Below, piece after piece: positions 87-52,670 of a DNA stretch of 64,000 nucleotides. The notes under the pieces are model-generated. The model was not told the DNA's origin and did no database searches. It saw only the letters and a list, made by a program, of their open reading frames with translations. Numbering within the stretch: position 1 is the stretch's first letter; each line of letters begins with the position of its first letter. Origin of the DNA: an uncultured Gammaproteobacteria bacterium (lineage in GTDB: Bacteria > Pseudomonadota > Gammaproteobacteria > Arenicellales > JAANXG01); contig CAVSUY010000027.1 in assembly GCA_963731035.1 (NCBI GenBank), positions 265,803-329,802 on the forward strand, given 5' to 3'. The translations under genes and the position numbers were made by a program.

Positions 87-108
87 TTTCGATCCTCATT
101 GCCCGTTC

Positions 109-6238: not shown

Positions 6239-6257
6239 CCCTGGGTATGCTTCACCA

Positions 6258-9709: not shown

Positions 9710-9737
9710 AAGGTACAAGTATCTCAGGGTTTGATAC

Positions 9738-34307: not shown

Positions 34308-34377
34308 AGTCCGCTCAGTCACCCTTGCGGGCGGAGGCGCCCGGCCGCGAGAACGATGGCGATGGGGGCGGCGTCGG

Positions 34378-34965
34378 TCAGCCGCCTATCCAGCGCCACG
34401 CCAGGACGAGCACGATGATCACGCCGGCAGTCCTGTACAACCAGTTTCGGCCGCGGGCAATAATGCCAGCGTCACCGGCTTCGGCGCCGCCCGATTCCGT
34501 TCCCCCGTCCCCCGCCGGGGTCTGGGCAGGCGCCACGATCCGCTCGAAGCGGGAAAAAAAATCGTCCGCCATCTTGCGCGCGGCACCGGCCACCAGACGC
34601 TGTCCGATCTGCGTAATCTTGCCGCCGATCTTTGCATCCACCGTGTAGTGCAGGTGGGTGCCCTCAGAGCCCGGCTCGAGCCGCACCGCCGCCGAACCCT
34701 TGCTGAAGCCCGCGGCGCCGCCGCTGCCGTTGAATTCGAGGATATAGGACTCGCCGGGAACGATGTCGCGCAGGCCGAGTTCCCCTTTGAAGGTCGCCGA
34801 GACCGGGCCCACTTTGGACTTCAGAGTGAGTGTGTATTCGTTGTCGCCCGTGCGCTCCATGCTCTGGCAGCCGGGTATACATTGCTTCAGGACGTCGACG
34901 CTTACCAGGCTGTCCCATACGGTCTTTGCATCGGCCTGGATAAGGCGTGAGTTCTCCAGTTTCAT
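34378..34965 (-). CDS. coxG: CoxG-family SRPBCC protein with a C-terminal membrane anchor
   Basis: MKLENSRLIQADAKTVWDSLVSVDVLKQCIPGC ... matches CoxG (carbon monoxide dehydrogenase subunit G family). A C-terminal TM helix reads AGVIIVLVLAWRWI. Confidence 0.8.
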   Translation of the reverse strand: MKLENSRLIQADAKTVWDSLVSVDVLKQCIPGCQSMERTGDNEYTLTLKSKVGPVSATFKGELGLRDIVPGESYILEFNGSGGAAGFSKGSAAVRLEPGSEGTHLHYTVDAKIGGKITQIGQRLVAGAARKMADDFFSRFERIVAPAQTPAGDGGTESGGAEAGDAGIIARGRNWLYRTAGVIIVLVLAWRWIGG

Positions 34966-35122
34966 GGCTTGGCTCCGGATTGGAATGACCGTGAGATCAA
35001 GCGTATGTGTTTCAACCGCCCGTCCAGCCCCACCGTCTTTCCCCAGCCCGCGTCGCTAAGCCACAGTCCCTTCTGCCAGCCCCTTTCATCCGCGGAGCAT
35101 GCCGTTTATCCTGCCTATCCGT
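34853..35122. repeat. direct repeat copy A (270 bp, identical to 46003..46272)
   Basis: Block-by-block comparison of the printed sequence shows every 10-mer block identical at an offset of 11150. The copy covers the coxG 5' 113 nt plus 157 bp upstream. Confidence 0.95.
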
Positions 35123-35232
35123 ACGAGGCCGATCCGATGATCTGTCCCCTCTGCCAGGGCGAGATGCGGGTGATTACGGTAATTCATGACCGGGGTGTGA
35201 TCCGCCGGATTCTGGAGCATTTGAAGCTGTGA
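35123..35232 (+). mobile_element. IS91-family transposase C-terminal remnant
   Basis: It translates to ...ADPMICPLCQGEMRVITVIHDRGVIRRILEHLKL-stop, the CxxC zinc-ribbon tail typical of IS91/ISCR (Y2) transposases. The remainder of the gene is absent. Confidence 0.55.
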
Positions 35233-35505
35233 AACCTCTGCCCATCAAACCGTAGTCCCCCTGATGACCCTGCCCCGCACTGGCCGACCCGGCCCCCGGG
35301 CGTTGGAATAGCTCATTCACACGATCAGCCAACGTGTCGGTGCTTACATGGAACGCGAAGCTAACATACCGTAGTTTCCCCGATACCTTTTTCTGCCAGT
35401 TCTGATACTCTCATAATGAGCGATGAGTCATGGAATCTTCAAACGAAGCAAATGGTTGTTTCGGGAAAAATGCCAGCACCAATTGGCCCTCAAGGAGATA
35501 GAAAG

Positions 35506-36003
35506 ATGAAAAAGACATTATCAGTTTTAGCAGCATTTGGGTTTGTCCTTGGCATGAGCGGCATGGCGATGGCAGCCGGCACCGCATCCGGCACTATGAC
35601 CGTCACGGCGACCTTGAGTGAAGCTTGTTCGGTGAGCAACGCTACGATGATCTTTCCTCCGTTCTCCCCATTTTTAAGTGGTGATGTGGTTGCGGATACG
35701 GCCGGAACGCTGATGATTAACTGCACTGCCGGGACGACCGCGCCGTTGATTTGGTCAGATACGCCCCGGCTCCTGGTTGGCCCCGCCGCGGCCACCATTG
35801 CCTTTTCCCTGGGTCAGACTGTTGCTACTGCATTAACTAATGCCCTTCCTTTAATATCCACAGGCGAAGCGATTGCCGCTCCTTTTGCCGCAACTGGTGT
35901 GACACAAGCAGTGCCCCTGCATGGATTGATAAAGGCAGCAGACTATGTTGGCAAAGCTCCCGGTGTCTACAGCGCAGCTATCATCGTGAATGTCAGTTAC
36001 TGA
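35506..36003 (+). CDS. spore-coat-U (SCPU/Csu) domain pilin subunit
   Basis: ATG is preceded by aggaga. It has a signal peptide MKKTLSVLAAFGFVLGMSGMAMA, a Cys pair (EACSV ... INCTAG) and a C-terminal ...IIVNVSY strand typical of CsuA/B-type subunits. Confidence 0.8.
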   Translation: MKKTLSVLAAFGFVLGMSGMAMAAGTASGTMTVTATLSEACSVSNATMIFPPFSPFLSGDVVADTAGTLMINCTAGTTAPLIWSDTPRLLVGPAAATIAFSLGQTVATALTNALPLISTGEAIAAPFAATGVTQAVPLHGLIKAADYVGKAPGVYSAAIIVNVSY

Positions 36004-36410
36004 TCGCTCCGGGGCACTTACCCCGAAGCTCGGCTTTGATAAAAGATATAGTTAAGACGCTAATATCCCGCGGCGTGCTGCGGGGGGGTGTATGTCCCTC
36101 TCCGGGTACCCGACGATCTCTGAATGAACTGGTGCTGTCCGCACATCGCCACATCATGTGGGCACGGCAGACGCTTATCATGCCGCACTCAACGCACCGT
36201 CTCACCTGTACAAAACAGGTCGGACTCGCCTCCCCCCTGCTCTACAACAGTCCCATTTTCTTTCTGAACTACCTGCCATGCCGCACCTCTTCCCTCTGAG
36301 TACGCATCGAAATGTCCTTACAAAAGATTCCGTCGGGATATATAGCTAGTTATTGATTCAGGATGACCTTATATCGGGTATTTACAAAGAACGATCAAAG
36401 AGATGGGAAA

Positions 36411-36902
36411 ATGAATAAGGCGCTGTCAGTTTTGGCGGCAATCGGGCTGGTTCTTGGCACGAGCGGGATGGCGGCAGCTGCGGGAACCGCGACGGGTACA
36501 GTGACTGCTTCGGCAACCTTGGAAAATTCGTGTACTGTGAGTGATGACGCCACCATGACCTTTCCCAATTCTGCCGCGCTCTTGAGTACCGCTGATCAAA
36601 CCGCGGATACGGGCACTACGCTGAAAGTCGCCTGTACCACCGGGACCTCGCCGACGATCTGGTCAGACACTCCCCGCATCCTGGTAAACGGCCCCGATTC
36701 CTTTCCCTTCAACCTGAGCCAGGTGAGTGGAGCAGCTAGTAATGACCTACCAACGACGGCTCCAGGTCAAGGTATTCCTGGTTATATTGCGGATGGTTCG
36801 GAGAAAGTCGTGCACCTGTATGGCAAGATCATGGCATCAAATTTTGGTGGCTTACCTGGTAAGTTGTACGCTGCAAACATCACCGTGACTGTTAGTTACT
36901 AA
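36411..36902 (+). CDS. SCPU/Csu-domain pilin subunit (paralogue)
   Basis: It has a signal peptide MNKALSVLAAIGLVLGTSGMAAA, a conserved Cys pair and a C-terminal ITVTVSY strand. It is clearly paralogous to 35506..36003. Confidence 0.8.
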   Translation: MNKALSVLAAIGLVLGTSGMAAAAGTATGTVTASATLENSCTVSDDATMTFPNSAALLSTADQTADTGTTLKVACTTGTSPTIWSDTPRILVNGPDSFPFNLSQVSGAASNDLPTTAPGQGIPGYIADGSEKVVHLYGKIMASNFGGLPGKLYAANITVTVSY

Positions 36903-36919
36903 TCGTTCCGAGGTGTCCA

Positions 36920-37660
36920 ATGTCTGTATCAACTGATGGCAGGATGATGAATGGACAGTTGCGCTGGCTGATGTTGGTTGTCATTTTCGGCACTTTTTCT
37001 GCAAACAGTGCACGGGCCGTAACCATATCACCGGTGATGGTGGAATTGACGCCAGCCCATCGAGTGGTGGCGGTCACCGTCAGCAACGAATCCGATCTCC
37101 CCGTGATCTTGCAAACCGAAACTCTTGCATGGACACAGCTCAACGGTGAGGACCGCCACGAAAAAAACGACGATCTATTGGTCGCGCCGCCGATCGCTGA
37201 AATCAAACCAGGAGGCAGCCAGATTTTTCGTGTTACGCTGCGAAGGCCTGCCTCCGCAGTTGCAGAACGTGCCTATCGTCTGGTACTCGATGATGTGAGC
37301 GCAATCAAAAAAGTGACCAAGGGAATCGGCGTCACCTTCAGCTTTTCGCACCGTCTGCCTGTTTTTGTCGCCGGCACCGGTAAAATTGGTCCGAAACCGC
37401 ATCTTGGAGCGTGCCCGGCCCCTGCCTCGTCCGGCTGCGTGCGCCTGGATAACGAAGGGGACCGTTTTTACCAGGTCAAGCGTCTGAACGTGAAGGGGAA
37501 CGATTGGCATAAGGAGCTGAATGCCGGCACCCGCGTCCTGGCTGGCGCCTGGAAGCAATGGACCTTCGCCTGGCCGGCCAACCATAACGAGCTGCTGACA
37601 GTGAATGCCGAGACTTCGGCCGGGCCGGTGTCCCTTGAACTACCGGCCCCAAGCCAATAA
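36920..37660 (+). CDS. periplasmic pilus chaperone (PapD/CsuC-like)
   Basis: A gaggtg Shine-Dalgarno precedes the start. A signal peptide is followed by the VTISPVMVEL G1-strand-like motif. Two Ig-like domains are inferred from the size (246 aa) and the position between subunits and usher. Confidence 0.75.
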   Translation: MSVSTDGRMMNGQLRWLMLVVIFGTFSANSARAVTISPVMVELTPAHRVVAVTVSNESDLPVILQTETLAWTQLNGEDRHEKNDDLLVAPPIAEIKPGGSQIFRVTLRRPASAVAERAYRLVLDDVSAIKKVTKGIGVTFSFSHRLPVFVAGTGKIGPKPHLGACPAPASSGCVRLDNEGDRFYQVKRLNVKGNDWHKELNAGTRVLAGAWKQWTFAWPANHNELLTVNAETSAGPVSLELPAPSQ

Positions 37661-37684
37661 CGATTAATTCTCATGCCTTGACAG

Positions 37685-40111
37685 ATGTCTAGCAGCGGGG
37701 ATTGCAGCCATACATTCTGCTATCAACCCTATTCACCTATAGATTGTAGAAGGCGATTAGATTGTAGAAGGCGATCAGTTCCGATACTGACATGTCTCCT
37801 GCTGGCCTCCCTGTTGCTCGCTTGTCCGGCGCCGGCAGCCGTAAATGGCAAAGGCGATGATAACGGATCCGCCGAAACCCTGCTGCTCGACGTGACTGTT
37901 AATACCCAGCTCCTGCCCGAGATTGTACGCGTGGAAAAGCTCGCCGATGGCCGCCTGGCCCTGCCGTTGGATGCCTGGCATGCTGCCCGCCTGCGGCTGC
38001 CGGAGGGCGAGCCCTTGTCGCTGCCCGACGATCAGCGCGGCTACGCGCTGGATTCGGTACCCGGCTTGACCTACAAGCTCGACCGCAGCCGGTTGACACT
38101 GGCGATTACGGCCGCAGCGGCGGCTTTTCAAGGCAGCACCATCGACCAGAGTCGCGAAGGCACGGCGCCCCCTAATCTATCGCCTCTCGGTTTCTATCTC
38201 AATTATGATGCCAGCATTACCAGCGTTACCAGCGGCGACTTTGGCTACGACAGCTACGGTGCCTTGGTCGAAGGGGTGGCCTTTAACAGCTGGGGGTCCG
38301 CCGTCGCCGGCGTAATACTGCGCGGCGACCGGGATGGCGATGAGGCCGTACGTGGAGAGACCTTCTTGCGCAAGGATCTCCCCGGTCCAATGGAAACGCT
38401 GGTACTGGGTGACACCATCGGCAGTGGTGGTGCCTGGAGCCGGCCGGCACGCTATGCCGGTATCCGCTGGGCCCGCGATTTTTCCCTGCGGCCCGGGTTT
38501 ATTACCATGCCGATGCCCAACATCTCTGGTTCGGCGGCTTTGCCGTCTACCATCGATATACTGGTCAATAATCAGCGGCAACTAAGTGAACGGGTTAACC
38601 CCGGCCCATTCGACCTGACCAATGTACCGGTAACGAGCGGCGCCGGTGAGATAAACCTGATAGTGCGGGATCTGCTCGGCCGCGAAACCGTCATTTCCGA
38701 AAGCTATTATGTCACGCCACGTCTGCTGGCGAAGGGCCTGACTGATTTTTCTCTGGAGATTGGGGCCTTGCGCAAGAATTTCGGCAGTGAAAGCAACGAT
38801 TATGGTGATGGCTTTGCCGCCGGCACCTGGCGCCATGGACTAACCTCGGCCCTGACCGGTGAAACGCACATCGAGCTGCAACAGATGCGCCAGGCTGCGG
38901 GGTTCGATCTGGTTGGTCTACTGGGCACACTGGGCGCGGCGGAGGTCTCAGCGGCTGTCGCCGACACCGATGGTGTCGTGGGTAACCATTATTTACTCGG
39001 CCTGGAACGCAGAACACCCACTGGTGCCGGCTCGCTCAGATGGGAATACTTTGATCGCTATTTCATTCAGTTTGGCTCATTGTCCGGCGAAACCAGACCA
39101 CGGGAGCGGTACAGTGCAAACCTCGGCGTGTCGCTATTCGAGAAAGTGTCGGCGGGGATAAACTACACTTGGCAAGATACCTGGGAGGGTGAGCGTTTCA
39201 GCCTGGCCACGGCTAGTCTGGGCGTATCACTGCCAGGGGACATGAATCTGAACGCCTTTGCCAGCCAACGCCTGGAAGGCGGTCACGACTGGAGCGGTGG
39301 CGTCAGCCTGAGCATGCCGCTGGGTAAGCAGCGCACGGCAACCGTCAGCACCAATCGCGGCAGCGGCGGCCGCACGAGCAACACGGCAGCAGTGAGCCAG
39401 TCGATACCGCCCGGCCCGGGACTTGGCTGGCTGGTGCGTGCCGGTGACGATCCCACCCAGCGATGGCAAGGCGGTCTCACCTGGAACACCAATGTCGGCA
39501 GTGTCAGCACCGAGGTCAGCGACACCGCTAACAATCCGGCCCTGCGCCTGGGCACCAGCGGCTCGGTCGGCTTATTGGGGGGGCATCCCTTCGCCACTCG
39601 CAATATCGGTACCGGCAGCTTTGCCGTGGTCAAGGTCGGCGACCTGGAGGGTATACCTGTCTACCGCAGCAACCAGCTGGTCGCTACTACCAACGCCAGC
39701 GGCTTGGCCCTGGTACCTGACCTTCTTCCCTACCAGGAGAACCAGCTCACCATTGATCCGGTTGAGCTGCCCTTCGACATTGAGATCGGCGGCGTCAAGG
39801 AAACGGTCCTGCCCTATGCGCGAAGCGGCCTCTTCGTCGACTTTCCGGTGCGCCGTTCGCGCAACGCTCTGGTGCTGCTGCGCCGGGCCGACGGTTCGCC
39901 GATGCCTGCCGGCGCCCGCGTGACGGTGTCGCCGGGTGAGAACGAATTTCTCGTTGGTAAACGGGGTGAGGTCTATCTGATGGATCTTGTCGATAGCAAC
40001 CGCCTTTCGGTGAAGTGGAAGGGGGCCACCTGCCACCTGATCCTGCCCCTTGACCCTAAAGGACCGAGCGAACCGCGCATCGGACCAGTGACCTGTGGAG
40101 GACAACCATGA
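37685..40111 (+). CDS. outer-membrane pilus usher (CsuD-like)
   Basis: 808 aa and beta-rich, positioned after the chaperone. Its stop overlaps the next ATG (ATGA at 40108-40111). The N-terminal region contains an 18-bp tandem duplication. Confidence 0.75.
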   Translation: MSSSGDCSHTFCYQPYSPIDCRRRLDCRRRSVPILTCLLLASLLLACPAPAAVNGKGDDNGSAETLLLDVTVNTQLLPEIVRVEKLADGRLALPLDAWHAARLRLPEGEPLSLPDDQRGYALDSVPGLTYKLDRSRLTLAITAAAAAFQGSTIDQSREGTAPPNLSPLGFYLNYDASITSVTSGDFGYDSYGALVEGVAFNSWGSAVAGVILRGDRDGDEAVRGETFLRKDLPGPMETLVLGDTIGSGGAWSRPARYAGIRWARDFSLRPGFITMPMPNISGSAALPSTIDILVNNQRQLSERVNPGPFDLTNVPVTSGAGEINLIVRDLLGRETVISESYYVTPRLLAKGLTDFSLEIGALRKNFGSESNDYGDGFAAGTWRHGLTSALTGETHIELQQMRQAAGFDLVGLLGTLGAAEVSAAVADTDGVVGNHYLLGLERRTPTGAGSLRWEYFDRYFIQFGSLSGETRPRERYSANLGVSLFEKVSAGINYTWQDTWEGERFSLATASLGVSLPGDMNLNAFASQRLEGGHDWSGGVSLSMPLGKQRTATVSTNRGSGGRTSNTAAVSQSIPPGPGLGWLVRAGDDPTQRWQGGLTWNTNVGSVSTEVSDTANNPALRLGTSGSVGLLGGHPFATRNIGTGSFAVVKVGDLEGIPVYRSNQLVATTNASGLALVPDLLPYQENQLTIDPVELPFDIEIGGVKETVLPYARSGLFVDFPVRRSRNALVLLRRADGSPMPAGARVTVSPGENEFLVGKRGEVYLMDLVDSNRLSVKWKGATCHLILPLDPKGPSEPRIGPVTCGGQP

Positions 40112-40575
40112 TGAGAACATCTGTATGTATTGCCGCAGCGCTGCTGCTGTTAGCTTACCTGTCGATTGTCTCCAGTGCGACGGCGGCCAGCTGCACCGTC
40201 AGCTCCTCTGGTGTCAAATTCGGTAGTTTTAGCCCACTGACCCTCGCTTCTGTTGACAGTACCGGTAGCATCACTGTCAATTGTACTGATGTCAGCTTGT
40301 ATTCGGTCGCGCTCTCGACCGGCAATGGCACCTACAGTCAGCGCCGCATGGTATCCGGAGATAATTATCTCTCCTATAACCTGTATCGCGATGCCGCCTG
40401 CCAGCAGGTCTGGGGCGACGGCATCTCTGACAGCAGCTTCACGGTGACTCTCACAAATCCAAGCAATGGCCACAACAACGTCCACACCGTCTATGGCCGT
40501 ATTCCACTCAGTATTCAGCGCGCTGCCCATGCCGGCATCTACAGCGACACCATCACCGTCACCGTGAGCTATTAG
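40108..40575 (+). CDS. SCPU/Csu-domain subunit (distal gene)
   Basis: 155 aa with a signal peptide, a Cys pair (ASCTV ... VNCTD) and a C-terminal ITVTVSY strand. Confidence 0.8.
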   Translation: MMRTSVCIAAALLLLAYLSIVSSATAASCTVSSSGVKFGSFSPLTLASVDSTGSITVNCTDVSLYSVALSTGNGTYSQRRMVSGDNYLSYNLYRDAACQQVWGDGISDSSFTVTLTNPSNGHNNVHTVYGRIPLSIQRAAHAGIYSDTITVTVSY

Positions 40576-40661
40576 CCTGACTTTTTGAGCGTTTCATTGA
40601 GCTCGTTGAAGGGTGAAACTCGGGACAGCAGGCTGCTGGTCACGGGAGCGGCATCCTCGAT

Positions 40662-41178
40662 GTGGTAGATGCTGCCTTGCACCGAATCGCTTGGCTCACC
40701 ATCCCGCAAAATATTCTTCGTCGTCGAAAATTCGTGCTGGCTGCCCTGGTGCCAAAACCGCGCATGAATCTGACCCGTTTCCACGGCGTGTTCGAACCTT
40801 CATGCCCTCCGTTTGGGTGCAACAGTGCACTGCGGCACCACATCACTCCCGCAGGCCGGGGCAAGCGAAAGTCCATCGAGACCAAGACCCCGGCCCAGCG
40901 CCGCGCCGCGATGGTCGGCTTTTGCTCCTGCAAAGCCGCCATACATGCCATCCATGGCAATAACCTCGGCCCAGCGCCTCAAGCGGGTGCTCAAGTTCGA
41001 CATCCAGACCTGTGACCGGTGCGGCGGCGCGGTCAAGGTAATCACCTGTATCGAGGAACCCGCGCTCGTGAAACGGATCCTGGACCACCTCGAGCAACGG
41101 TCCGAGTCCGGTCGAACGATGACACGCCCGGCACGAGCGCCGCTTTACGCCGCCAAGCGGCAGGGAACAATTAGCTAA
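40662..41178 (+). pseudogene. IS91-family transposase 3' remnant, frameshifted
   Basis: One frame gives VLAALVPKPRMNLTRFHGVFEPS. A second frame gives TSAQRLKRVLKFDIQTCDRCGGAVKVITCIEEPALVKRILDHLEQ. Both are conserved C-terminal blocks of IS91-type transposases. There is no catalytic N-terminal part. Confidence 0.6.
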
Positions 41179-41375
41179 CACCAGTCAGAAAGCCCATAAC
41201 CAGGGCACTGAAGACATCCCGAGCTGCGTTTGCCAAGGGTGGCTACGTGGTGGCGCGGGTGCCTGCACTATCGTGCAGAATACTCCGGCCCCACGTGCTA
41301 CGCACCCAGTACCCGGCCGGGGCGACTGGATAACTACTTCTGTTGGAGCACGCTGCCGCCGAATGAAACACTAAA

Positions 41376-41396
41376 GGGGGTACTCAAGCTGCCCCC
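41376..41396 (-). terminator. weak intrinsic terminator candidate after the PAS-GGDEF-EAL gene
   Basis: On the minus strand, just after the TAA, the sequence reads GGGGG-cagcttgagta-CCCCC followed by tttagtgtttcatt. Confidence 0.3.
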
Positions 41397-41398
41397 AT

Positions 41399-44300
41399 TC
41401 ATTTATGCCGCTTCTCAGCCATAGCGGTCAATGTGATGGCTTTCTCGACCATGAACTTTGCTTCAAAAACTTCCAACGGGACCGCCTTGCTGAACAGGAA
41501 ACCCTGCATTTCGTTGCAGTTGAGCAACCGAAGCAGTTGCGATTGCTTCTCGGTTTCGACACCTTCCGCCACCACCTTGAGGTTCAGCGCATGCGCCAGG
41601 CTGATAATAGTGGAGACCACTGCCAGACCTTCCGGCCCCGCGGTCGTTCCCATCACGAAGGCGCGATCGATCTTCAATGTGTCCACCGGCAGTTTTGTCA
41701 GGTAGCTGAGTGAGGAAAAGCCGGTGCCGAAATCGTCTATGGCGATGGTGACACCCAAGGCGCGGATCGCCTTCAGGGTGGCGATGTTACGCTCGACGTC
41801 ATCCATGATTACACTTTCGGTGATTTCCAGCTCCAGCCCCACCGCCGCATGCGCGTCAAGAGCGATTGCCTGCTTGATTTCGGCTATGAAGTTGACATTG
41901 CGCAGTTGCAACGGCGACACGTTTACCGCGATCTTTACAGCAGGCAGGCCTGCGTTTCGCCAGCGCAGATTGTCTTCGATCGCTTTGCCCAACGCCCAAC
42001 GCCCGACTTCATAGATCAAGCCGATTTCTTCCAGGATCGGTATGAATATACCAGGCGGCACCAGGCCGGTGCGTGGATCATTCCAGCGGATCAGAGCCTC
42101 GGCGCCGACGACCTTGCCGCTCACCAGGTTCACCTTGGGCTGGTAATGCAGCACGAATTCCTCGTTGTCGATCGCCTTGCGCAACTGATTTTCCAGAGTG
42201 AGCTTGCTGGCCACCAATTCGGTCATTTTCCGTGTGTGGAACAGGTATTTTTCTCCGGTCGCCTTTGCCTTTTTGAGTGCGGCCTCGGCGTTCCTGAACA
42301 AGATGCCGGCGTCGTCACCGTCATCCGGGAATAATGCGATGCCGGCCTTGATGCTGATACGGAGCTCGGCCTTATCCATGTGGAACCGATGCTCCAGAAA
42401 AGCAGTAATCAAATTCGCGACCAGCTTTGCCAGGTTGCCGTCCGACTTTATATTCGGTAGGACGATGGCAAATTGATCTGCATCGAGACGCGCCAACAGA
42501 TTGGCGTCCCCCATTTTGTGGGTCAGCCACTCCGCTACCTGTTTCAACAGCGCATCACCGCTTTGACGGCCGAGGCTGTCGTTGATGCTCTTGAACCGAT
42601 CGAGGTCGATCAGGACTATGGCGAGTTTGTGCCCGCCGCTGGTCGCGCTGCGTATATACTGCACTACCCGCTCAAGAAACAGCATGCGGTTGGCGAGTCC
42701 GGTAAGCACGTCGTAGTAGGCGAGGTAATTGAGCCTTTCCTGCTTGTTGATGTGGTCGATCGCGTATGCGATGTCGCCGGCCAACTCGGTCAACAATTTT
42801 ATCTCAGGTCCCTGAAAGAAATTAATCTCGCTGGCGTAAAGCGCAAGTACCCCTACTGCTTCTCCCGAGATAATCAGCGGCAATATTGCCATCGAGTTTA
42901 CCCCTGCTTCGGCGTAGTGCTTGCCGAATAAAAGCCTGGGATCGTTTTGCGTATCGTATGTTACGACGATCTCTTTCTCCCTGAGTGCCTGCACAATCAT
43001 GGTCTTTTGCATACCTGCACTGGATGACAATACGTTTTTGATTTCTGCCAGAAGCTCTTCGTTCTTTCCTGCCGACGCGATCGAGGTAGACAGCATCGTA
43101 ACTGGATCAACCGTAACCAGCATGGCCATGCGGAACCCGCCTGCGTCGACCGCGATTTGGCATGTTTCCCTGAACAATTCATCGCGGTCCGTTACGCGCA
43201 CAATCAGCATGTTGATGCCGCTCAGCACGGAGAGCACCCGGTTGAGGTATTTGATACGGACTTCGGATTTTTTTCGTTCAGTGATGTCCTGGATCATACT
43301 CAGGTGGCGTGGGAGGGTTTCATAACCGAATTGCAAAGGTCTAATCGTCATGTCGATCCAGATGACTTCTCCATCGGGACGAAGATACCGTTTTTCCATC
43401 TGGAACCCGTTTATCTTGCCGGCGTTCAACAGTGCCATATTATCCTGGTCGGCCTGCACATCATCGGGGTGAGTGATTTGCGACCACTCGGTGTCTAGTA
43501 ACTCTTCCATAGACCTGCCGGCAATCTCGGCAAAGCGCATGTTGACTTCGCAGAAATGTCCACTGAGCGAATCGATCACGGCAATGCCCAACGGCGCCTG
43601 CTCAAACATGGTTCTGATACGTTCCTCGCTGGCTTGCAGCGTTTGTTCCGCCAGCTTGCGATCAGTAACATCCTGGTTGACGCCAATCAGTCGAACTGTG
43701 TTGCCCTGCAAATCCTTCTCGACGCTGAGACGCACTTCTACCCAGATAATTTCTCCTTGCCCGCTTAATATGCGAGTCTCGGTCACAGCTAAATAATCCG
43801 GATCACGGGTTTCGAAGGCCAATCGAACCTGTTGGCCAACCATGGGGCCGTCTTCAGGATGGACGTAGCGACCGATAAAATCCGCCGCGGACATACGGTA
43901 GCCGCCCGCATCCTCGGCAGTAATCCCGTGCAGCGAATAATATTGGTCATTGAATATGAATTCATCCGTAGCAAATTCATACTCCCAGTAACCTATTTTG
44001 GCGATTGTCAGCGCTTCAGAAAGTCGCTGTTCATATTTTTGTAGTGCAAGTTCAGTCGTCACGCGCTCGGTGATGTCGCGGATGTTGCACTGGATGACTT
44101 TCCGTTCGCCAACCGCATAGAGGTTGCTGACGAATTCCACGTCGATCCGCCGACCGTCCTTCGTTTCCAGCGGCAAGTCTTCGTAACGGATGTATCCGAT
44201 GGACTGCAATTCGTCGAACGCTTCCTTGCTGGCTTCAATGTCCTTGAACAGGCCGATTTCCCACAGCATCTTGCCCATGCACTCGTCGAGACGGTAGGAC

Positions 44301-45289
44301 AGCAGTTTGAGGATGAAGGGATTGGCATTCAGGATTTTCCCGGTTTCTGCATCCAGGATCAGGATGCCGTCCTTGGCCGTCTCGAACAGCCGCCGGTATC
44401 GGATTTCGGATGCTTGCAGCAGCCGCTTCACCTGCATGCGTTCGGTAATGTCACGGATGTTGCACTGAATCACTTGCCGCGCGCCAACCGCATAGAGGTT
44501 GCTGACAAACTCCACGTCAATCTGCCGGCCGTCTTTTGTCTGCAGCGGCATATCTTCGTATCGGACATGCCCCTTGGACTGCAATTTCCGAAACGCCGCC
44601 TTGCTGGCTTTGACATCCTTGAACAGGCCGATTTCCCACAGCATCTTGCCGGTGCATTCGCCGAGACCATAGGACAACAGGTCGAGAATGAAGGGGTTGG
44701 CGTCCACGATCTTCCCGGTTTCTGCGTCCAGGATCAGGATGCCGTCCGTGGCCGCCTCGAACAGCTGCCGGTAGCGCTGTTCGGTTTCTCGCAGTGTCTC
44801 GCTTAGCTGATTGCTTTCGTTGATATTTTCGAGGGTGTGTACCGAGTAGAGATAGTTGCCCCGCCCATCCTTGACCGAGTAAGCGCGCGAGCGGTAGCTT
44901 GTGTCGCCGGCCAATACTTCATCTTCCTCTTCTTCCGTTTTTTCCAGCTCTTGCAGGCAATTGTGCAGCGGTGCATGGATTTTGGGGAAAACTTCGTAGT
45001 ATGGCCGGCCGATGATCTTCTTGAAGGGAATGCCGGCGCTTCGCTGATAAGCCTGATTGCAACGCAAAACACGAAAATCCTTGTCGTGCACGAAGATCGG
45101 GTCGTCCGCCGCATCCAGCACAGAAATCCAGTTCTGGTGCGCCTGTTCGATTTGCTTGCGGGTATTCTCGGCTTCCTGGACGGCGGACTGGTGTTCGGTC
45201 TCCTGGCGAAGGTGACGCGCTTCAGCTTCGGCCAGCGCGCGTTGCGCAGCCGCCAGTTCGTGCTGCACCCTTTCCAGCGCGTCCCTCAT
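41399..45289 (-). CDS. multi-PAS/GAF sensor with a degenerate GGDEF domain (DADQF) and an intact EAL domain; predicted c-di-GMP phosphodiesterase
   Basis: ATG at 45287-45289 sits behind aagagg. The protein has a coiled-coil N-terminus, several PAS units and a GAF domain. The GGDEF-domain site reads ARLDADQFAIVL instead of GGDEF. The EAL blocks EALIRW, DDFGTGFSSLSYL, KIDRAFV, EGVETE and QGFLFSKA are intact. Confidence 0.9.
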   Translation of the reverse strand: MRDALERVQHELAAAQRALAEAEARHLRQETEHQSAVQEAENTRKQIEQAHQNWISVLDAADDPIFVHDKDFRVLRCNQAYQRSAGIPFKKIIGRPYYEVFPKIHAPLHNCLQELEKTEEEEDEVLAGDTSYRSRAYSVKDGRGNYLYSVHTLENINESNQLSETLRETEQRYRQLFEAATDGILILDAETGKIVDANPFILDLLSYGLGECTGKMLWEIGLFKDVKASKAAFRKLQSKGHVRYEDMPLQTKDGRQIDVEFVSNLYAVGARQVIQCNIRDITERMQVKRLLQASEIRYRRLFETAKDGILILDAETGKILNANPFILKLLSYRLDECMGKMLWEIGLFKDIEASKEAFDELQSIGYIRYEDLPLETKDGRRIDVEFVSNLYAVGERKVIQCNIRDITERVTTELALQKYEQRLSEALTIAKIGYWEYEFATDEFIFNDQYYSLHGITAEDAGGYRMSAADFIGRYVHPEDGPMVGQQVRLAFETRDPDYLAVTETRILSGQGEIIWVEVRLSVEKDLQGNTVRLIGVNQDVTDRKLAEQTLQASEERIRTMFEQAPLGIAVIDSLSGHFCEVNMRFAEIAGRSMEELLDTEWSQITHPDDVQADQDNMALLNAGKINGFQMEKRYLRPDGEVIWIDMTIRPLQFGYETLPRHLSMIQDITERKKSEVRIKYLNRVLSVLSGINMLIVRVTDRDELFRETCQIAVDAGGFRMAMLVTVDPVTMLSTSIASAGKNEELLAEIKNVLSSSAGMQKTMIVQALREKEIVVTYDTQNDPRLLFGKHYAEAGVNSMAILPLIISGEAVGVLALYASEINFFQGPEIKLLTELAGDIAYAIDHINKQERLNYLAYYDVLTGLANRMLFLERVVQYIRSATSGGHKLAIVLIDLDRFKSINDSLGRQSGDALLKQVAEWLTHKMGDANLLARLDADQFAIVLPNIKSDGNLAKLVANLITAFLEHRFHMDKAELRISIKAGIALFPDDGDDAGILFRNAEAALKKAKATGEKYLFHTRKMTELVASKLTLENQLRKAIDNEEFVLHYQPKVNLVSGKVVGAEALIRWNDPRTGLVPPGIFIPILEEIGLIYEVGRWALGKAIEDNLRWRNAGLPAVKIAVNVSPLQLRNVNFIAEIKQAIALDAHAAVGLELEITESVIMDDVERNIATLKAIRALGVTIAIDDFGTGFSSLSYLTKLPVDTLKIDRAFVMGTTAGPEGLAVVSTIISLAHALNLKVVAEGVETEKQSQLLRLLNCNEMQGFLFSKAVPLEVFEAKFMVEKAITLTAMAEKRHK

Positions 45290-45691
45290 CGGTTCAACCT
45301 CTTTGCCATGCCAAAATTGGCTGATCGCTTGGAGATTCAAGATCAACCCAATTCAGGATGCGTTACGGCGAACACATAAGCTTGAGTATAGTAATATATA
45401 TTGCCATACGGGAGATATGCAAAATTGAATATGCAATTTGGGCAATAGCCGCAATTTCATAAAACAGTACGGAATTGCCTCGTTAGGCACGACTCGGAAG
45501 TAACGGTAGTCGTTTCTTGTTTCCGCTTCTAGCTGAATAGCGACCGTTCACGAGTCGCAGTAGACAGGCAGAAATGGCCGGGTGGCCGACACTGGTTTGG
45601 GTAGCTTTGAATAATACAGAGTCAGATAAGCAATGACCTGATGGCATAAGCCAATCAGGTCATTACATCAAATGGTTATTTAAACGATCAT

Positions 45692-45912
45692 CCCCGTCAC
45701 CGTCATCCGGGAATAATGCGATGCCGACCTTGATGCTGATGCGGAGCTCGGCCCTATTCATGTGGAACCGATGCTCCAGAAAAGCAGTAATCAAACTCTC
45801 GACCAACTACGCCAGGGTGCCGTCCGATTTTACATTCGGCAGCACGATGGCAAAATGGTCTGCATCGAGACGCGCCAACAGATTGGCGTTCCCCATTTTG
45901 TGCGTCAGCCAT
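45692..45912 (-). pseudogene. about 220-bp remnant of a paralogous GGDEF-domain gene
   Basis: It aligns by eye to 42311..42531 of the large gene at roughly 85-90% identity. It has an in-frame TAG (cta at 45807-45809) where the intact gene encodes Lys, and it is truncated at both ends. Confidence 0.7.
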
Positions 45913-46002
45913 CAGTCGCCGGCACCACTCCGTGGCCGGCCTTCGCCAGCCGATCGGCGACCCCAGTGAGCTCCGGGTGAAGGGCACAGGTCACGCGCAG
46001 GC

Positions 46003-46115
46003 CGCTCCATGCTCTGGCAGCCGGGTATACATTGCTTCAGGACGTCGACGCTTACCAGGCTGTCCCATACGGTCTTTGCATCGGCCTGGATAAGGCGTGA
46101 GTTCTCCAGTTTCAT
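46003..46115 (-). pseudogene. truncated coxG 5' fragment (first 38 codons only)
   Basis: ORF 45912..46115 begins MKLENSRLIQADAKTVWDSLVSVDVLKQCIPGCQSMER, identical to coxG. It then reads into unrelated sequence at the repeat boundary. Confidence 0.85.
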
Positions 46116-46272
46116 GGCTTGGCTCCGGATTGGAATGACCGTGAGATCAAGCGTATGTGTTTCAACCGCCCGTCCAGCCCCACCGTCTTTCCCCAGCCCG
46201 CGTCGCTAAGCCACAGTCCCTTCTGCCAGCCCCTTTCATCCGCGGAGCATGCCGTTTATCCTGCCTATCCGT
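46003..46272. repeat. direct repeat copy B (270 bp, identical to 34853..35122)
   Basis: See copy A. This copy is followed by gttcgccgac, so the junction reads GTTC at 46271..46274. Confidence 0.95.
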
Positions 46273-46548
46273 TCGCCGACAACGTCGGGCTCAACACCTC
46301 GGGCAACACGACCCGGCGCCGGCCGAGCGATGACTATGGTGTAAGCTCATGATTTTGCGGGGAAAACGTATTCAAGGATATGCCATCTTTGGAATCCGCA
46401 ACCATTTGTTGGATTAACCCCTTCCACAAAACGTGCCGATTTGGATACTATGTATCCTATATGTAGAAGAAGCCATATATAGCAAGGCATGTGTGGCAGA
46501 AGTGCCGTGGGCACTCGCAAACACGGCAAAACCAAGCGGAGGACAGAT

Positions 46549-47067
46549 GTGAAAGCTCTTCAAATCGAACCGGAGAAGTGCACCGGTTGCCTACAGTGTG
46601 AAATGGCGTGCTCCTACGAGAACGAAGGTGTATTCAATCCCGCCAAATCCCGCATCAAAGTTTTCAGTTTCCATGACGAGGGCCGCTTCTCGCCGTATAC
46701 CTGCACGCAGTGCGACGAAGCCTGGTGTATGCACGCGTGCCCGGTGGAAGCCATCGCGGTCAATCAGGAGACAGGCGCCAAAGAGGTGTTCGATGATGTT
46801 TGCGTGGGATGCAAGGTCTGCACCATCGCCTGTCCATTCGGCACGGTCAACTACAATTCCTCCTCGGGCAAGGTAATCAAGTGCGATTTGTGCGGCGGTG
46901 ATCCGTGGTGTGCCAAAGCCTGCCCCACCGGGGCGATCACCTACGTCGACGCGGACAGCGGCGGCCTGGAACGCATGCGGGCCTGGGCGCAGCGGGGAAC
47001 CTCCCCGGCCAGCGCCAGCGTGAACGGGCCGGCGGAAAAAGACATCCAATCCTACAGATCGGCTTAG
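46549..47067 (+). CDS. aorA: poly-[4Fe-4S] ferredoxin-like electron-transfer subunit of aldehyde oxidoreductase (AorA-like)
   Basis: GTG start behind ggagg. There are four Cys clusters: CTGCLQCEMAC, CTQCDEAWCMHACP, CVGCKVCTIACP and CDLCGGDPWCAKACP. Confidence 0.8.
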   Translation: MKALQIEPEKCTGCLQCEMACSYENEGVFNPAKSRIKVFSFHDEGRFSPYTCTQCDEAWCMHACPVEAIAVNQETGAKEVFDDVCVGCKVCTIACPFGTVNYNSSSGKVIKCDLCGGDPWCAKACPTGAITYVDADSGGLERMRAWAQRGTSPASASVNGPAEKDIQSYRSA

Positions 47068-47084
47068 CGCCAGGGGGTTGAACC

Positions 47085-48935
47085 ATGGCTTGGACGAAGA
47101 AAGTTATGCGCGTGAACCTGACTGAGGGAAAAGTCAGCGAAGAACCCTTGAATATGGAATGGGCGCAGCAATACCTGGGGCAACGTGGCTTGGCCAGCAA
47201 GTACCTGTTCGAAGAAATCGATCCCAAATGCGATGCGCTCGGTCCGGACAACAAACTGATTTTCACTACCGGTCCCTTGACTGGCACCATGGCATCGACC
47301 GGCGGCCGTTACTCGGTCGTCACGAAAAGCCCGCTCACCGGTGCCATCGCGTGTTCAAACTCCGGCGGTTTCCTTGGCCCGGAGCTGAAGTTCGCCGGCT
47401 GGGACATGATCATTTTTGAAGGCAAATCACCCAAACCGGTGTTTCTGCTTGTTCAGAACGATCACGCCGAGCTGGTGGACGCTTCGGAGATCTGGGGCAA
47501 GTCCGTTTGGCAGGCGGACAAGATCCTGCACAAGAAATACCAGGACCCGGAGCTTCGCATCGCCTGCGTGGGGCGTTCCGCCGAGGCCGGGTGTCTTTAT
47601 GCCGGGATCATCAATGACCTGCACCGTGCGGCCGGACGCTCCGGCGTGGGGACGGTGATGGCGTCGAAGAATCTCAAGGCACTGGTCGTTCGCGGCACCA
47701 AGGGACTCGGCGGCATCAAGGACCCGATGGGTTTCCTGAAGGCCACGGAAGAAGGCAAACAAGTGTTGCGGGAAAACGCTGTTACGGGCCAGGGGCTGCC
47801 GACCTACGGGACACAGGTATTGATGAACGTCATCAATGAGTCCGGAGCCCTGCCCACGTTCAATATGCGAGAGGTGCAGTTCGATAAAGCGCACAACATC
47901 AGCGGTGAGGCGATGCATGAGCCGCGCAAGACGGATGGCCAGGCCAACCTGACCACGAATGCGGCCTGTTTCGGGTGCACCATCGCCTGCGGGCGCATCT
48001 CCACCATAGACCACAGCCATTTCACCATCGAAAACAAACCGGAGTACTGGCACAACTCCGGCGGACTCGAATACGAGGCTGCCTGGGCGATGGGAACGGA
48101 CACCGGCGTCGATGATCTCGATGCGGTGACCTATGTCAACTTCCTGTGCAATGAAGACGGATTCGATCCGATCACGTTCGGTGCAACCGTCGCGGCGGCC
48201 ATGGAGATGTACGAAGACGGCGTGATTACCGACAAGGAAACCGGCGGCGTCGAGTACAAGTTCGGTTCCGCCAAGGCCCTGCAACACGCCGCGGAGGCCG
48301 TGGCGAAGGGTGAAGGTTTCGGCAAGGACCTGGGCCTCGGCTCCAAGCGCCTGTGCGAGAAATACGGACGCCCCGAACTGTCCATGACGGTGAAAGGACA
48401 GGAGTTCCCCGCCTATGATCCACGCGGCATCCAGGGTATGGGATTGGCTTATGCCACGTCGAACCGGGGCGCCTGCCACCTGCGCGGATATACCGTTGCG
48501 TCCGAGATTCTGGGAATCCCGGAGAAGACGGATCCTCTCGTGTCGGAAGGTAAGGCCGGCCTGGTGAAAGCCTTCCAGGACGCCACTGCCGCGTTCGACT
48601 CGAGCGGTCTGTGCCTGTTCACTTCTTTTGCCTGGACCCTGGACAATGTCGCACCGCAGCTCGACACAGCCTGCGAGGGCGGCTGGACGGCCGAAAAGCT
48701 CGTGGAGGTCGGCGAGCGCATCTGGAACCTCGAGCGCGAGTTCAACCGCTTGGCGGGCCTCACCGGGAAGGACGACAATCTACCGCAACGATTGCTCAAG
48801 GATGCCGCAAAAACCGGCCCGGCCAAGGGCAAGGTCAACGAGCTCGACCATATGCTGCCGGAATACTATGAACTGCGCGGCTGGACCAAGGATGGCACGG
48901 TCACCGAGGAAACCAAGCAACGGCTTGGTTTGTAG
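47085..48935 (+). CDS. aorB: tungsten-containing aldehyde:ferredoxin oxidoreductase catalytic subunit
   Basis: 616 aa with full-length AOR-family similarity: the N-terminal RVNLTEGKV ... GGRGLASKYL-type block, GRYSVVTKSPLTG, the DxxGxC-type SGLCLF block and the CHLRGY Fe-S ligand region. Confidence 0.9.
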   Translation: MAWTKKVMRVNLTEGKVSEEPLNMEWAQQYLGQRGLASKYLFEEIDPKCDALGPDNKLIFTTGPLTGTMASTGGRYSVVTKSPLTGAIACSNSGGFLGPELKFAGWDMIIFEGKSPKPVFLLVQNDHAELVDASEIWGKSVWQADKILHKKYQDPELRIACVGRSAEAGCLYAGIINDLHRAAGRSGVGTVMASKNLKALVVRGTKGLGGIKDPMGFLKATEEGKQVLRENAVTGQGLPTYGTQVLMNVINESGALPTFNMREVQFDKAHNISGEAMHEPRKTDGQANLTTNAACFGCTIACGRISTIDHSHFTIENKPEYWHNSGGLEYEAAWAMGTDTGVDDLDAVTYVNFLCNEDGFDPITFGATVAAAMEMYEDGVITDKETGGVEYKFGSAKALQHAAEAVAKGEGFGKDLGLGSKRLCEKYGRPELSMTVKGQEFPAYDPRGIQGMGLAYATSNRGACHLRGYTVASEILGIPEKTDPLVSEGKAGLVKAFQDATAAFDSSGLCLFTSFAWTLDNVAPQLDTACEGGWTAEKLVEVGERIWNLEREFNRLAGLTGKDDNLPQRLLKDAAKTGPAKGKVNELDHMLPEYYELRGWTKDGTVTEETKQRLGL

Positions 48936-48944
48936 GGAGGAGCT

Positions 48945-50207: not shown

Positions 50208-50455
50208 AAATAACGCTCAAGCTTTTTGCGACCTTGAGCGATAGGCTGCCGGCGAATTCCGTCGCCAACACGGTGGAAGTCGACGTGCCCGACGGCGCAA
50301 CCGCCATGCAGGTTATTGACCAGTTTCAGGTGCCCGAGGACATGGTGCACCTGGTACTGGTCAACGGTGTCTACCTGACTCCCGAGGCCCGCGGGAAGCA
50401 GGCGCTCAAACCCCGGGACGCATTGGCAATCTGGCCTCCCGTCGCCGGGGGCTGA
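50204..50455 (+). CDS. MoaD/ThiS-family sulfur-carrier protein
   Basis: 83 aa with a beta-grasp pattern and a C-terminal PPVAGG ending in Gly-Gly. It overlaps the aorC stop by 4 nt. Confidence 0.8.
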   Translation: MKITLKLFATLSDRLPANSVANTVEVDVPDGATAMQVIDQFQVPEDMVHLVLVNGVYLTPEARGKQALKPRDALAIWPPVAGG

Positions 50456-50500
50456 GCGGCTCCCGCAACCCGGAACTGCCCTGAAATTCGCGGCAGCGAC

Positions 50501-50782: not shown

Positions 50783-50867
50783 ACCCCGATTGATCTAAGT
50801 CCGCTTTGAGCTCAATCTCGACCAATCGGTGGCCGAAGCCGATAGAAAACCGCTAAGCGCCGCCGGG

Positions 50868-52665: not shown

Positions 52666-52670
52666 TTGCC

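What the first reader, a model, noticed from the sequence alone, without database searches (positions are those of the whole stretch)
34853..46272. 10.9-kb low-GC insertion bounded by perfect 270-bp direct repeats duplicating the coxG 5' end and its upstream region
Positions 34853..35122 and 46003..46272 are identical block for block (offset 11150). Copy A is part of an intact coxG. Copy B retains only the first 38 codons and then breaks into unrelated sequence.

The 10,880 bp between them (35123..46002) contain transposase remnants, a pilus operon, a c-di-GMP phosphodiesterase and gene scraps. Sampled stretches of this interior are about 42-55% GC by hand count, against about 65-70% in the flanks.

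A 270-bp repeat is far too long for a transposase target duplication. It fits Campbell-type integration, by homologous recombination, of a circular molecule that carried a copy of this chromosomal segment. Rolling-circle IS91/ISCR elements are thought to generate such intermediates when they read through their terminator end. Perfect identity suggests a recent event. It also provides a ready substrate for precise excision.
Basis: partly seen in the sequence, partly recalled or inferred. Interest (0 to 1): 0.7.

Follow-up and report, generated by a model that had tools for sequence, protein, structure and literature searches.

The report
Strain-variable gene island between 270-bp repeats
A 10.9-kb block of foreign-looking genes (a pilus operon and a c-di-GMP signalling gene) sits between two identical 270-bp copies of the start of coxG, and closely related wild strains carry either the block or the exact empty site, so this is an ordinary recombination-made gain/loss polymorphism and not a new kind of mobile element.

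Summary
Positions 34853-35122 and 46003-46272 are identical (270/270). Copy A belongs to an intact minus-strand coxG; copy B keeps 38 codons. The 10,880-bp interior has 56.0% GC against about 64% in the flanks, and GC3 of 0.50-0.68 against 0.78-0.83.

Independent assemblies show both states. At least six carry the occupied arrangement. Two contigs (L014, L112) carry exactly the predicted empty site.

Three points change the reading:
- Copy B does not break into unrelated DNA. It is fused to a 91-bp relic of mocA, the gene that follows coxG in relatives. The intact coxG is followed by the complementary mocA relic (codons about 1-17). The repeat is therefore what remains of a second, decayed copy of the coxG-mocA locus.
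- The IS91-type transposase piece starts exactly at the edge of copy A. It is a scrap of about 170 bp (codons about 430-485) with no catalytic domain and no element end. No transposase made that joint.

Best reading: recombinational insertion with duplication (Campbell-type or homology-anchored illegitimate joining), followed by decay, and reversible through the repeats. This is a known kind of event and of modest interest.

The parts
34378..34965 (-). Intact coxG (195 aa). Its first 38 codons (34853-34965) lie inside repeat copy A.
   Evidence: Pfam COXG, E 5e-31. 66% identical to CoxG of L110 over 193 aa.
34335..34393 (-). mocA relic, about codons 1-17 ('LTDAAPIAIVLAAGR'). It overlaps the coxG stop as in relatives, then breaks off next to the convergent permease gene (stop at 34307).
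   Evidence: Minus-strand translation compared with the MocA N-termini of L110 and L026. Coordinates are approximate.
34853..35122 (.). Repeat copy A (R): coxG codons 1-38 plus the 157 bp upstream of coxG.
   Evidence: Exact 270-bp identity with 46003-46272.
35123..35290 (+). IS91-family transposase scrap #1, about codons 430-485. It contains an in-frame TGA at 35230-35232, which is TGG in other strains. It has no catalytic domain and no element end.
   Evidence: tblastn with ISPps1 and T. lovleyi transposases. The closest relatives P0002-P0004 align only from 'YEADP' (35122/35123) to '...WP'. The TGG variant is seen in L021-L023.
35356..40575 (+). Chaperone-usher pilus module: SCPU 35416-36003, SCPU 36363-36902, PapD-type chaperone 36920-37660, usher 37685-40111, SCPU 40108-40575.
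   Evidence: Pfam. 85.5% nucleotide identity to L116 over exactly 35356-40575, and 78.6% to L113-L115 over the 3' part (36907-40575) with weaker matches to the pilin genes. All four loci lie in unrelated genomic contexts.
40737..41142 (+). IS91-family transposase scrap #2, frameshifted, about codons 340-480.
   Evidence: tblastn E 0.003 to 2e-6 with two transposases.
41399..45346 (-). PAS(x4)-GAF-GGDEF-EAL gene (1315 aa). It holds an internal PAS tandem duplication and repeat D3a (42313-42529).
   Evidence: Pfam; repeats D1 and D3.
45695..45911 (-). GGDEF pseudogene fragment (D3b). It is 92% identical to 42313-42529 and carries an in-frame stop.
45912..46002 (-). mocA relic, about codons 54-84, fused directly to coxG codon 38 of copy B.
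   Evidence: tblastn with MocA of L110 (61% over 31 aa) and of L026 (58%). E about 1e-5 against the whole window.
46003..46272 (.). Repeat copy B (R): 157 bp upstream region plus truncated coxG' (codons 1-38).
46273..46488 (.). Spacer between R and aorA. It is contiguous with R in the empty-site contigs. Two haplotypes differ at 46273-46308.
46489..50455 (+). aor operon: 4Fe-4S ferredoxin, aldehyde:ferredoxin oxidoreductase, FAD oxidoreductase, ThiS/MoaD-like protein. It occupies the place of coxSLMDE in relatives.
   Evidence: Pfam; synteny of L110.

Best explanation
**What it is.** The 10,880 bp between the repeats are a strain-variable accessory mosaic. The mosaic consists of a pilus module, a c-di-GMP signalling gene and scraps of two IS91-type transposases. 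It was placed between coxG and the aor operon by recombination, not by a transposase or an integrase.

**How the repeat arose.** The 270-bp repeat is the surviving overlap between two copies of the native coxG-mocA locus. One copy is still functional for coxG: coxG plus mocA codons 1-17, at copy A. The other copy has decayed: coxG codons 1-38 fused to mocA codons 54-84, at copy B.

**Most likely sequence of events (inferred).**
1. DNA from a sister lineage, either a circle or a linear fragment, carried the decayed coxG'-mocA' relic followed by the mosaic.
2. This DNA recombined with a chromosome that had an intact coxG next to aor.
3. A homologous exchange took place in or to the right of R.
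4. An illegitimate joint formed between the end of the 157-bp segment immediately upstream of coxG (35122) and the transposase scrap (35123).

The outcome is topologically a Campbell-type insertion-duplication.

**Consequences.** Both genes that flank the spacer keep their upstream DNA. The two identical repeats allow RecA-type precise loss. Both states occur in natural populations.

**Shown:** the repeat, the four junctions, the relics, the empty and occupied forms, and the foreign composition.

**Inferred:** the order of events, the form of the incoming DNA, and the direction of change (gain or loss) in any given strain.
For: - The repeat is exact and both copies sit in one contig, in the window and in L020.
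- Native flanks. coxG is intact at copy A, and a mocA N-terminal relic overlaps its stop codon as in relatives. R is contiguous with 46273 onward in the empty-site contigs L014 and L112, and in the unbranched unitig L007 of a lineage 0.5-1% divergent.
- Novel joints. Transposase homology begins exactly at 35122/35123, and the conserved residues just upstream have no counterpart in R. At the other joint, coxG codon 38 is fused to mocA codon about 54.
- Relatives have the order xdhC-nifU-moeA-coxSLMDE-coxG-mocA. Copy B plus the mocA relic is collinear with moeA in that ancestral order.
- No tRNA is present. No integrase or intact transposase was seen in the interior among the ORFs scanned with Pfam or by tblastn with two IS91-family transposases.
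- Interior GC3 is 0.50-0.68 against 0.78-0.83 in the flanks.
- The pilus module occurs at 78-85% nucleotide identity in unrelated contexts.
- The occupied form is seen in the window, ERZ25039500 and JGI 3300036915, -18 and -25. JGI 3300036922 and Logan SRR11829002 hold interior contigs only (L024, L022). Logan unitigs of SRR11828890, SRR11829002, SRR11827249, ERR11594398 and ERR11571143 also break at the repeat edge.
- In haplotype Rt-2 the three bases after R (ACG) equal the first three bases of the insert. This could be junction microhomology.
Against: - The order of events is not resolved. The empty form could be ancestral or could be a secondary deletion between the two repeats. SNPs at 51462 and 52309 show all four allele combinations among strains, so strain history is reticulate.
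- No donor allele was found. That would be the mosaic attached to a longer transposase gene, or a strain with only the decayed copy. No circular junction (mocA'-R-transposase) was found either.
- The microhomology exists only in one of the two haplotypes. The more divergent lineage carries the other haplotype.
- The short-read empty-site contigs could in principle be mis-threaded through a 270-bp repeat. Against this, the exact-match look-up for the SCPU3 pilin returned no contig from the sample of L014 (6 contigs read, 5 shown), and L007 shows no branch at the repeat edge.
Confidence: 0.55

Rival explanations
1. All events happened within one lineage. A duplication of about 1 kb or more of the coxG-mocA region arose, either as a tandem duplication or as a template-switch insertion flanked by a duplication. 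The mosaic lay at its joint. Independent deletions then trimmed each copy: coxG codon 39 to mocA codon 53 in copy B, and mocA codon 18 onward in copy A. Every empty site is then a later deletion between the two 270-bp repeats.
For: - The two copies carry complementary, non-overlapping mocA relics: codons 1-17 at copy A and 54-84 at copy B.
- Copy B is collinear with the ancestral moeA...coxG-mocA order.
- Copy B is still decaying: a 50-bp deletion in L018 and a 1-nt indel in L020.
- A second structure of the same design lies inside the insert, namely D3a/D3b with a 3382-bp indel between strains.
Against: - It needs at least four events, plus two independent precise deletions to explain the empty sites in two lineages.
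- The more divergent lineage (L112, L007) is empty. Parsimony therefore favours an empty ancestor.
- No strain with a longer copy B was found.
Confidence: 0.25
2. An IS91/ISCR-type element read through its terminator by rolling-circle replication and produced a circle that carried a copy of the coxG 5' region. The circle then integrated by homologous recombination.
For: - Two IS91-family transposase remnants lie in the interior, and one is exactly at the edge of copy A.
- One-ended transposition that co-mobilises adjacent DNA, and circular intermediates, are documented for this family (PMC13181058).
- The coxG side is the side, upstream of the transposase gene, that read-through would capture.
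Against: - The remnant is about 170 bp of internal coding sequence, codons about 430-485. It has no catalytic domain, no oriIS and no terIS.
- Homology to the closest relatives stops before the natural C-terminus, and the pilus module begins 65 bp later.
- The joint with R lies inside the ORF and not at an element end.
- The window holds no intact IS91 copy.
- The pilus and GGDEF-EAL genes lie on the oriIS side, which read-through does not mobilise. This point rests on my own knowledge of IS91/ISCR layout. documents only that read-through carries DNA beyond terIS.
- The mocA relic next to copy B is explained by locus decay without any IS.
Confidence: 0.07
3. The structure is an assembly artefact. 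The true state would be an empty chromosome plus a separate molecule, or a collapsed or mis-threaded repeat.
For: A short-read assembly graph for the occupied form is identical to the graph for an empty site plus an 11.15-kb circle. Many contigs and unitigs end at the repeat (L004-L009, L012, L013, L022, L023, L107-L109).
Against: - Two long contigs differing by about 0.5% (the window and the 639-kb ERZ25039500 contig) both carry copy A, the insert and copy B in order.
- In JGI 3300036925, copy B has a 50-bp deletion that copy A lacks, and the contig runs from the insert through copy B into aor (L018 against L003).
- No contig shows the circle junction mocA'-R-transposase.
Confidence: 0.03

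Closest known systems
Campbell-type (single-crossover) insertion-duplication.
   Same: Long direct repeats of a resident segment flank the inserted DNA. Each repeat has one native and one novel flank. The repeats allow precise loss, and an empty site equal to one repeat copy exists.
   Different: No functional IS or ISCR, and no element end, lies at either boundary. The repeated segment carries relics of the neighbouring gene (mocA), which points to recombination between two alleles or copies of the locus. No circular form was observed.
Homology-facilitated illegitimate recombination (one homologous anchor plus one microhomology joint), known from natural transformation
   Same: One side of the incoming DNA is homologous (R and the aor side). 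The other side is an illegitimate joint inside a gene scrap. In one haplotype that joint has 3-5 bp of possible microhomology.
   Different: The process is usually described with loss of recipient DNA. Here the duplication arises because the incoming DNA carries its own decayed copy of the anchor. Competence of this organism is unknown, and nothing here tests the process directly.
Integrase-type genomic islands flanked by att repeats at tRNA genes
   Same: A compositionally foreign, strain-variable block flanked by direct repeats that include the end of a gene.
   Different: No integrase was seen among the interior ORFs scanned, and there is no tRNA. The repeat is 270 bp, not about 15-60 bp, and it covers the 5' end of a protein gene plus upstream DNA.
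Tandem duplication followed by deletional decay (duplication remnants)
   Same: Complementary gene relics lie in the two copies, and the non-functional copy is still eroding.
   Different: 10.9 kb of foreign DNA lies between the copies. No strain with a longer second copy was found.

Membership tests
IS91/ISCR rolling-circle transposition unit | Intact HUH/Y2 transposase gene | tested here: not met
   Only about 55 codons survive (about 430-485 of about 510) at 35123-35290, plus a frameshifted scrap at 40737-41142. The 87-aa ORF spanning scrap #1 (34969-35232) gave no Pfam family at E 0.01 or below, and tblastn with two IS91-family transposases found only C-terminal pieces.
IS91/ISCR rolling-circle transposition unit | oriIS end next to a GTTC or CTTG target, and a terIS end; boundaries of the moved DNA coincide with these ends (PMC13181058) | tested here: not met
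   Homology to the closest transposases ends at about 35290, before the natural C-terminus. The pilus module starts at 35356. The joint with R lies inside the ORF.
Campbell-type insertion-duplication | Direct repeats of a resident segment flank the insert, each with one native and one novel flank | tested here: met
Campbell-type insertion-duplication | An empty site equal to one repeat copy exists in relatives | tested here: met
   L002/L014 (about 99.95%) and L112 (99.52% end to end against the reconstructed empty site).
Campbell-type insertion-duplication | A circular form or its junction (right end of the insert - R - left end of the insert) | tested here: not met
   No such junction occurs among the contigs at hand. 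The resolved paths are only L-R-insert, insert-R-aor and L-R-aor. Sampling is limited, and read-level data were not available.
Homology-facilitated illegitimate recombination | An illegitimate joint at a short microhomology next to a homologous anchor | tested here: inconclusive
   Haplotype Rt-2 shares ACG with the start of the insert. Together with the conserved Tyr codon of the transposase this gives (G)TACG. Haplotype Rt-1, which the divergent lineage also carries, shares nothing there.
Integrase-type genomic island | Site-specific recombinase gene and a short att repeat, usually at a tRNA gene | tested here: not met
   No tRNA in 64 kb. No integrase among the interior ORFs scanned. The repeat is 270 bp.
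Transposon target-site duplication | A repeat of about 2-14 bp made by staggered cleavage | tested here: not met
   The repeat is 270 bp. IS91-family elements make no target duplication at all (PMC13181058).

The most novel reading that the evidence does not exclude
The segment could be a recombinase-less shuttling cassette. In this reading it repeatedly leaves the chromosome as an 11.15-kb circle by recombination between the 270-bp repeats and re-enters related genomes through the same 270 bp. A pilus / c-di-GMP module would then spread through a population without any dedicated mobility gene. The presence of both empty and occupied sites on both sides of a reticulate strain history is compatible with this reading but does not show it.
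Probability: 0.12. Interest if true: 0.5.

Novelty: new member of a known kind. Interest (0 to 1): 0.3.

Why it matters
- **A documented example.** The region shows, at base level, how accessory genes with no mobility genes of their own are gained and lost through recombination with a decayed copy of the neighbouring locus. Both states are still segregating in wild populations of an uncultured gammaproteobacterium. The presence or absence of a pilus operon and a c-di-GMP enzyme may bear on surface attachment.
- **A caution on interpretation.** A transposase scrap at a junction does not show that a transposase made the junction.
- **A caution on assembly.** A 270-bp repeat is enough to break most short-read contigs of this locus, so metagenome-assembled genomes will often lack it.

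Tried and rejected
- **Transposase remnant spanning the edge of copy A.** After I suspected that the 157 bp upstream of coxG inside R were part of the transposase remnant. Copy A to 35123 would then be native and the empty site derived. The closest transposase relatives refute this. They align only from 35122/35123 onward, and the conserved 'AAWARLIYRV' just before that point is absent from R.
- **P0005.** This protein equals CoxG residues 36-195 and looked like a coxG cut at the left edge of R. It comes only from contigs that end inside the repeat.
- **Outgroup synteny from representative genomes.** The species itself is not represented; the best CoxG match is 75%. Only the moeA...coxG-mocA order could be used.
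- **coxE relic.** I searched for a coxE remnant in the coxG upstream DNA to prove native contiguity. None was found.
- **Plasmid search with the whole interior.** No match.
- **Metagenome scan with a 50-mer from R.** It gave a single contig, L112.
- **SNP-based polarity of empty against occupied forms.** A four-gamete test shows recombination among strains, so polarity cannot be read from SNPs.
- **Promoter and terminator scans of both repeat regions.** Nothing above shuffled expectation.
Full report
**1. Observation**

Window 34853-35122 and 46003-46272 are identical over 270 bases, and the identity stops at both ends (family D2).

coxG lies on the minus strand at 34378..34965 (195 aa; Pfam COXG, E 5e-31). 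Copy A therefore contains coxG codons 1-38 plus the 157 bp upstream of the gene. Copy B has the same 38 codons and then leaves the coxG frame (ORF 45912..46115).

The 10,880-bp interior holds the following:
- an IS91-family transposase scrap (35123 to about 35290)
- a chaperone-usher pilus operon with three SCPU pilins (35416-40575)
- a second, frameshifted IS91 scrap (40737-41142)
- a 1315-aa PAS-GAF-GGDEF-EAL gene (41399..45346, minus strand)
- a GGDEF pseudogene fragment (45695-45911)

**2. Composition**

| Region | GC | GC3 of genes | Tetranucleotide r to flanks |
|---|---|---|---|
| Interior 35123-46002 | 56.0% | 0.50-0.68 | 0.82 |
| aor region 46273-50800 | 59.1% | 0.72-0.78 | 0.89 |
| Flanks | 63.9% left, about 64% right | 0.78-0.83 | 0.92-0.97 (4-kb windows) |

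The discontinuity is real and lies mainly on the interior.

**3. The arrangement is real and polymorphic**

Look-ups by exact protein, plus one DNA scan, returned independent assemblies 98.9-100% identical to the window. Mapping them to the window gives these forms:

- **Occupied, both copies in one contig.** ERZ25039500 contig_19195 (639 kb; L001, L011, L020).
- **Occupied, one junction crossed.**
  - L003: coxG, R, transposase scrap.
  - L015, L018, L021: insert, R, aor.
- **Empty, L002 = L014** (JGI 3300043141, 10.1 kb). Bases 1-8626 match 54628-46003 and bases 8354-10124 match 35125-33355. The two matches share one copy of R.
- **Empty, L112** (Ga0055445). It matches the reconstructed empty site end to end at 99.52%.

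L112 shares R variants with L007. L007 is a unitig from a lineage 1.1% divergent, and it runs through the R/aor boundary without a branch. Unitigs of the close strains instead stop exactly 30 nt inside the repeat edge, as expected when the repeat has two continuations.

The exact-match look-up for the SCPU3 pilin returned no contig from the sample of L014 (6 contigs read, 5 shown).

No contig shows a circle or tandem junction.

Copy B varies among strains. It carries a 50-bp deletion in L018 and a 1-nt insertion in a C-run in L020.

**4. What the four junctions are**

- **Left of copy A.** This flank is native. coxG is intact. The minus strand after its stop reads 'LTDAAPIAIVLAAGR', which is the N-terminus of MocA, and it overlaps the coxG stop as in relatives. 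The relic breaks off next to a convergent permease gene.
- **Right of copy A.** This is a true breakpoint. I first suspected that transposase homology ran across it. The closest relatives of this transposase (P0002-P0004, 58-66% identical) align only from 'YEADP...', that is from 35122/35123. Their conserved 'AAWARLIYRV' has no counterpart in R. Homology continues through the TGA at 35230-35232. Relatives have Trp at that position, and strains L021-L023 have TGG. Homology ends at about 35290, short of the natural C-terminus. In an annotated ISPps1 transposase of 512 aa this stretch is roughly residues 430-465. The piece is thus an internal scrap with neither end of the element.
- **Left of copy B.** The 91 bp at 45912-46002 encode 'GLRVTCALHPELTGVADRLAKAGHGVVPATD'. 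This is 61% and 58% identical to MocA residues 54-84 and 69-99 of two relatives, with E about 1e-5 against the whole window.
- **Right of copy B.** This flank is contiguous with R in both empty-site contigs and in L007, so it is native.

**5. Ancestral context**

In relatives with 66-75% identical CoxG (L110, L111, L026) the order on one strand is xdhC-csd-nifU-moeA-coxS-coxL-coxM-coxD-coxE-coxG-mocA.

The window's minus strand has, in order:
- an internally deleted xdhC
- a csd stub fused to nifU
- moeA (70% identical)
- the aor operon on the opposite strand, in the place of coxSLMDE
- copy B with the mocA relic

Copy B is therefore collinear with the ancestral cluster. The fusion coxG'(1-38)|mocA'(54-84) is an internal deletion of about 0.6 kb in a coxG-mocA pair.

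The two copies carry complementary mocA relics. The 270-bp repeat is what two differently decayed copies of one locus still share. It is not a snippet picked up by an insertion sequence.

**6. Mechanism**

No transposase or integrase can account for the joints:
- There is no tRNA.
- No integrase appeared among the interior ORFs scanned.
- There is no intact transposase.
- IS91-family elements make no target duplication and insert next to GTTC or CTTG through oriIS (PMC13181058).

The topology is that of a single homologous exchange plus illegitimate joints.

The route with the fewest events that I can construct is as follows:
1. A sister allele had coxG-mocA decayed and the mosaic downstream of it.
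2. That allele recombined with a chromosome of the empty type.
3. A homologous crossover took place in R or on the aor side.
4. An illegitimate joint formed between base 35122 and the transposase scrap.

In haplotype Rt-2 (L013, L021, L008) the bases after R are ACG, as at the start of the insert. This gives a possible (G)TACG microhomology. Haplotype Rt-1 lacks it.

The main rival keeps everything in one lineage: a duplication of about 1 kb with the mosaic at its joint, followed by a deletion in each copy. Under that model every empty site is a later deletion between the repeats.

SNPs at 51462 and 52309 occur in all four combinations among strains. Strain history is therefore reticulate, and SNPs cannot settle polarity. 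The divergent lineage being empty favours an empty ancestor weakly.

**7. Age**

Close strains differ by about 0.05% in the flanks, so 270 identical bases say little about age. The arrangement is shared by strains that differ in four ways:
- a 3382-bp indel between the two D3 copies (L015, L021)
- 88 of 115 SNPs concentrated in 42.0-45.5 kb of the GGDEF-EAL gene (L020)
- 36 SNPs in its EAL part (L021)
- the Rt-1 and Rt-2 haplotypes

The structure is not brand new and it is not fixed.

**8. Origin of the parts**

The pilus module (35356-40575) is 85.5% identical at nucleotide level to L116, where it lies behind a two-component system. Its 3' part (36907-40575) is 78.6% identical to L113-L115, where it lies next to HU and, in L113, a phage-type integrase. 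None of these loci has coxG, aor or a GGDEF-EAL gene nearby. The interior has no close match among plasmids.

The names that sources attach to the nearest CoxG homologues suggest an uncultured gammaproteobacterium labelled Arenicellales.

**9. Verdict**

It is a recombinational insertion-duplication with a real, precise empty site, but the IS91 rolling-circle mechanism has no support. 'Unrelated sequence' and the GC figures need correcting. This is a well-documented member of a known kind of event and of modest interest.

Noticed in passing
window 42313-42529 and 45695-45911; L015, L021: A second direct repeat of the same design lies inside the insert. It is a 217-bp GGDEF segment at 92% identity; one copy is in the intact gene and the other is a pseudogene fragment. 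Strains L015 and L021 lack the 3382 bp between the copies and keep a single copy, almost wholly of the fragment type, with the EAL-side flank.
   Followed up: partly
window 42000-45500 against L020; 41500-42529 against L021: Strain differences pile up inside the PAS-GAF-GGDEF-EAL gene. L020 has 88 of its 115 SNPs in 3.5 kb, and L021 has 36 in 1 kb. Elsewhere divergence is about 0.05%. This suggests allele exchange or conversion within the gene. In L020 the gene is called as two ORFs (824 + 467 aa).
   Followed up: partly
window 44060-44359 and 44435-44734: A tandem duplication of one PAS domain (375-bp period, 82% identity) inside the GGDEF-EAL gene.
   Followed up: no
window 46273-46308: Five SNPs within 36 bp start at the first base after copy B and define two haplotypes: Rt-1 in the window and most contigs, Rt-2 in L013, L021 and L008. 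R itself is invariant between them.
   Followed up: partly
window 50868-53006 (minus strand) and 46489-50455: The cox accessory cluster has decayed. xdhC has lost residues about 68-224, and a csd stub is fused to nifU. The coxSLMDE genes of relatives are replaced by an aldehyde:ferredoxin oxidoreductase operon in the opposite orientation. coxG remains as an orphan.
   Followed up: partly
window 35230-35232: The stop codon that ends the transposase-scrap ORF is TGA in the window and TGG (Trp, as in intact relatives) in L021-L023. This is a recent nonsense change in a dead gene.
   Followed up: yes
L018 (JGI 3300036925), copy B, R positions 109-158 = window 46111-46160: A 50-bp deletion removes the start codon and the proximal upstream DNA of the truncated coxG in copy B. 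Copy A in the same sample (L003) is complete.
   Followed up: yes
window 6166-6233: A short tandem array with a 17-bp unit (CCTGGCTTGAGAGCAGC, about four copies) far from the finding.
   Followed up: no
L107-L109, L012, L013, L022, L023, L004-L009: Most short-read contigs and unitigs of this locus end inside or at the edge of the 270-bp repeat. No near-identical CoxG locus turned up among the representative genomes (best match 75%). A contig break at the repeat may be one reason; this was not checked.
   Followed up: partly
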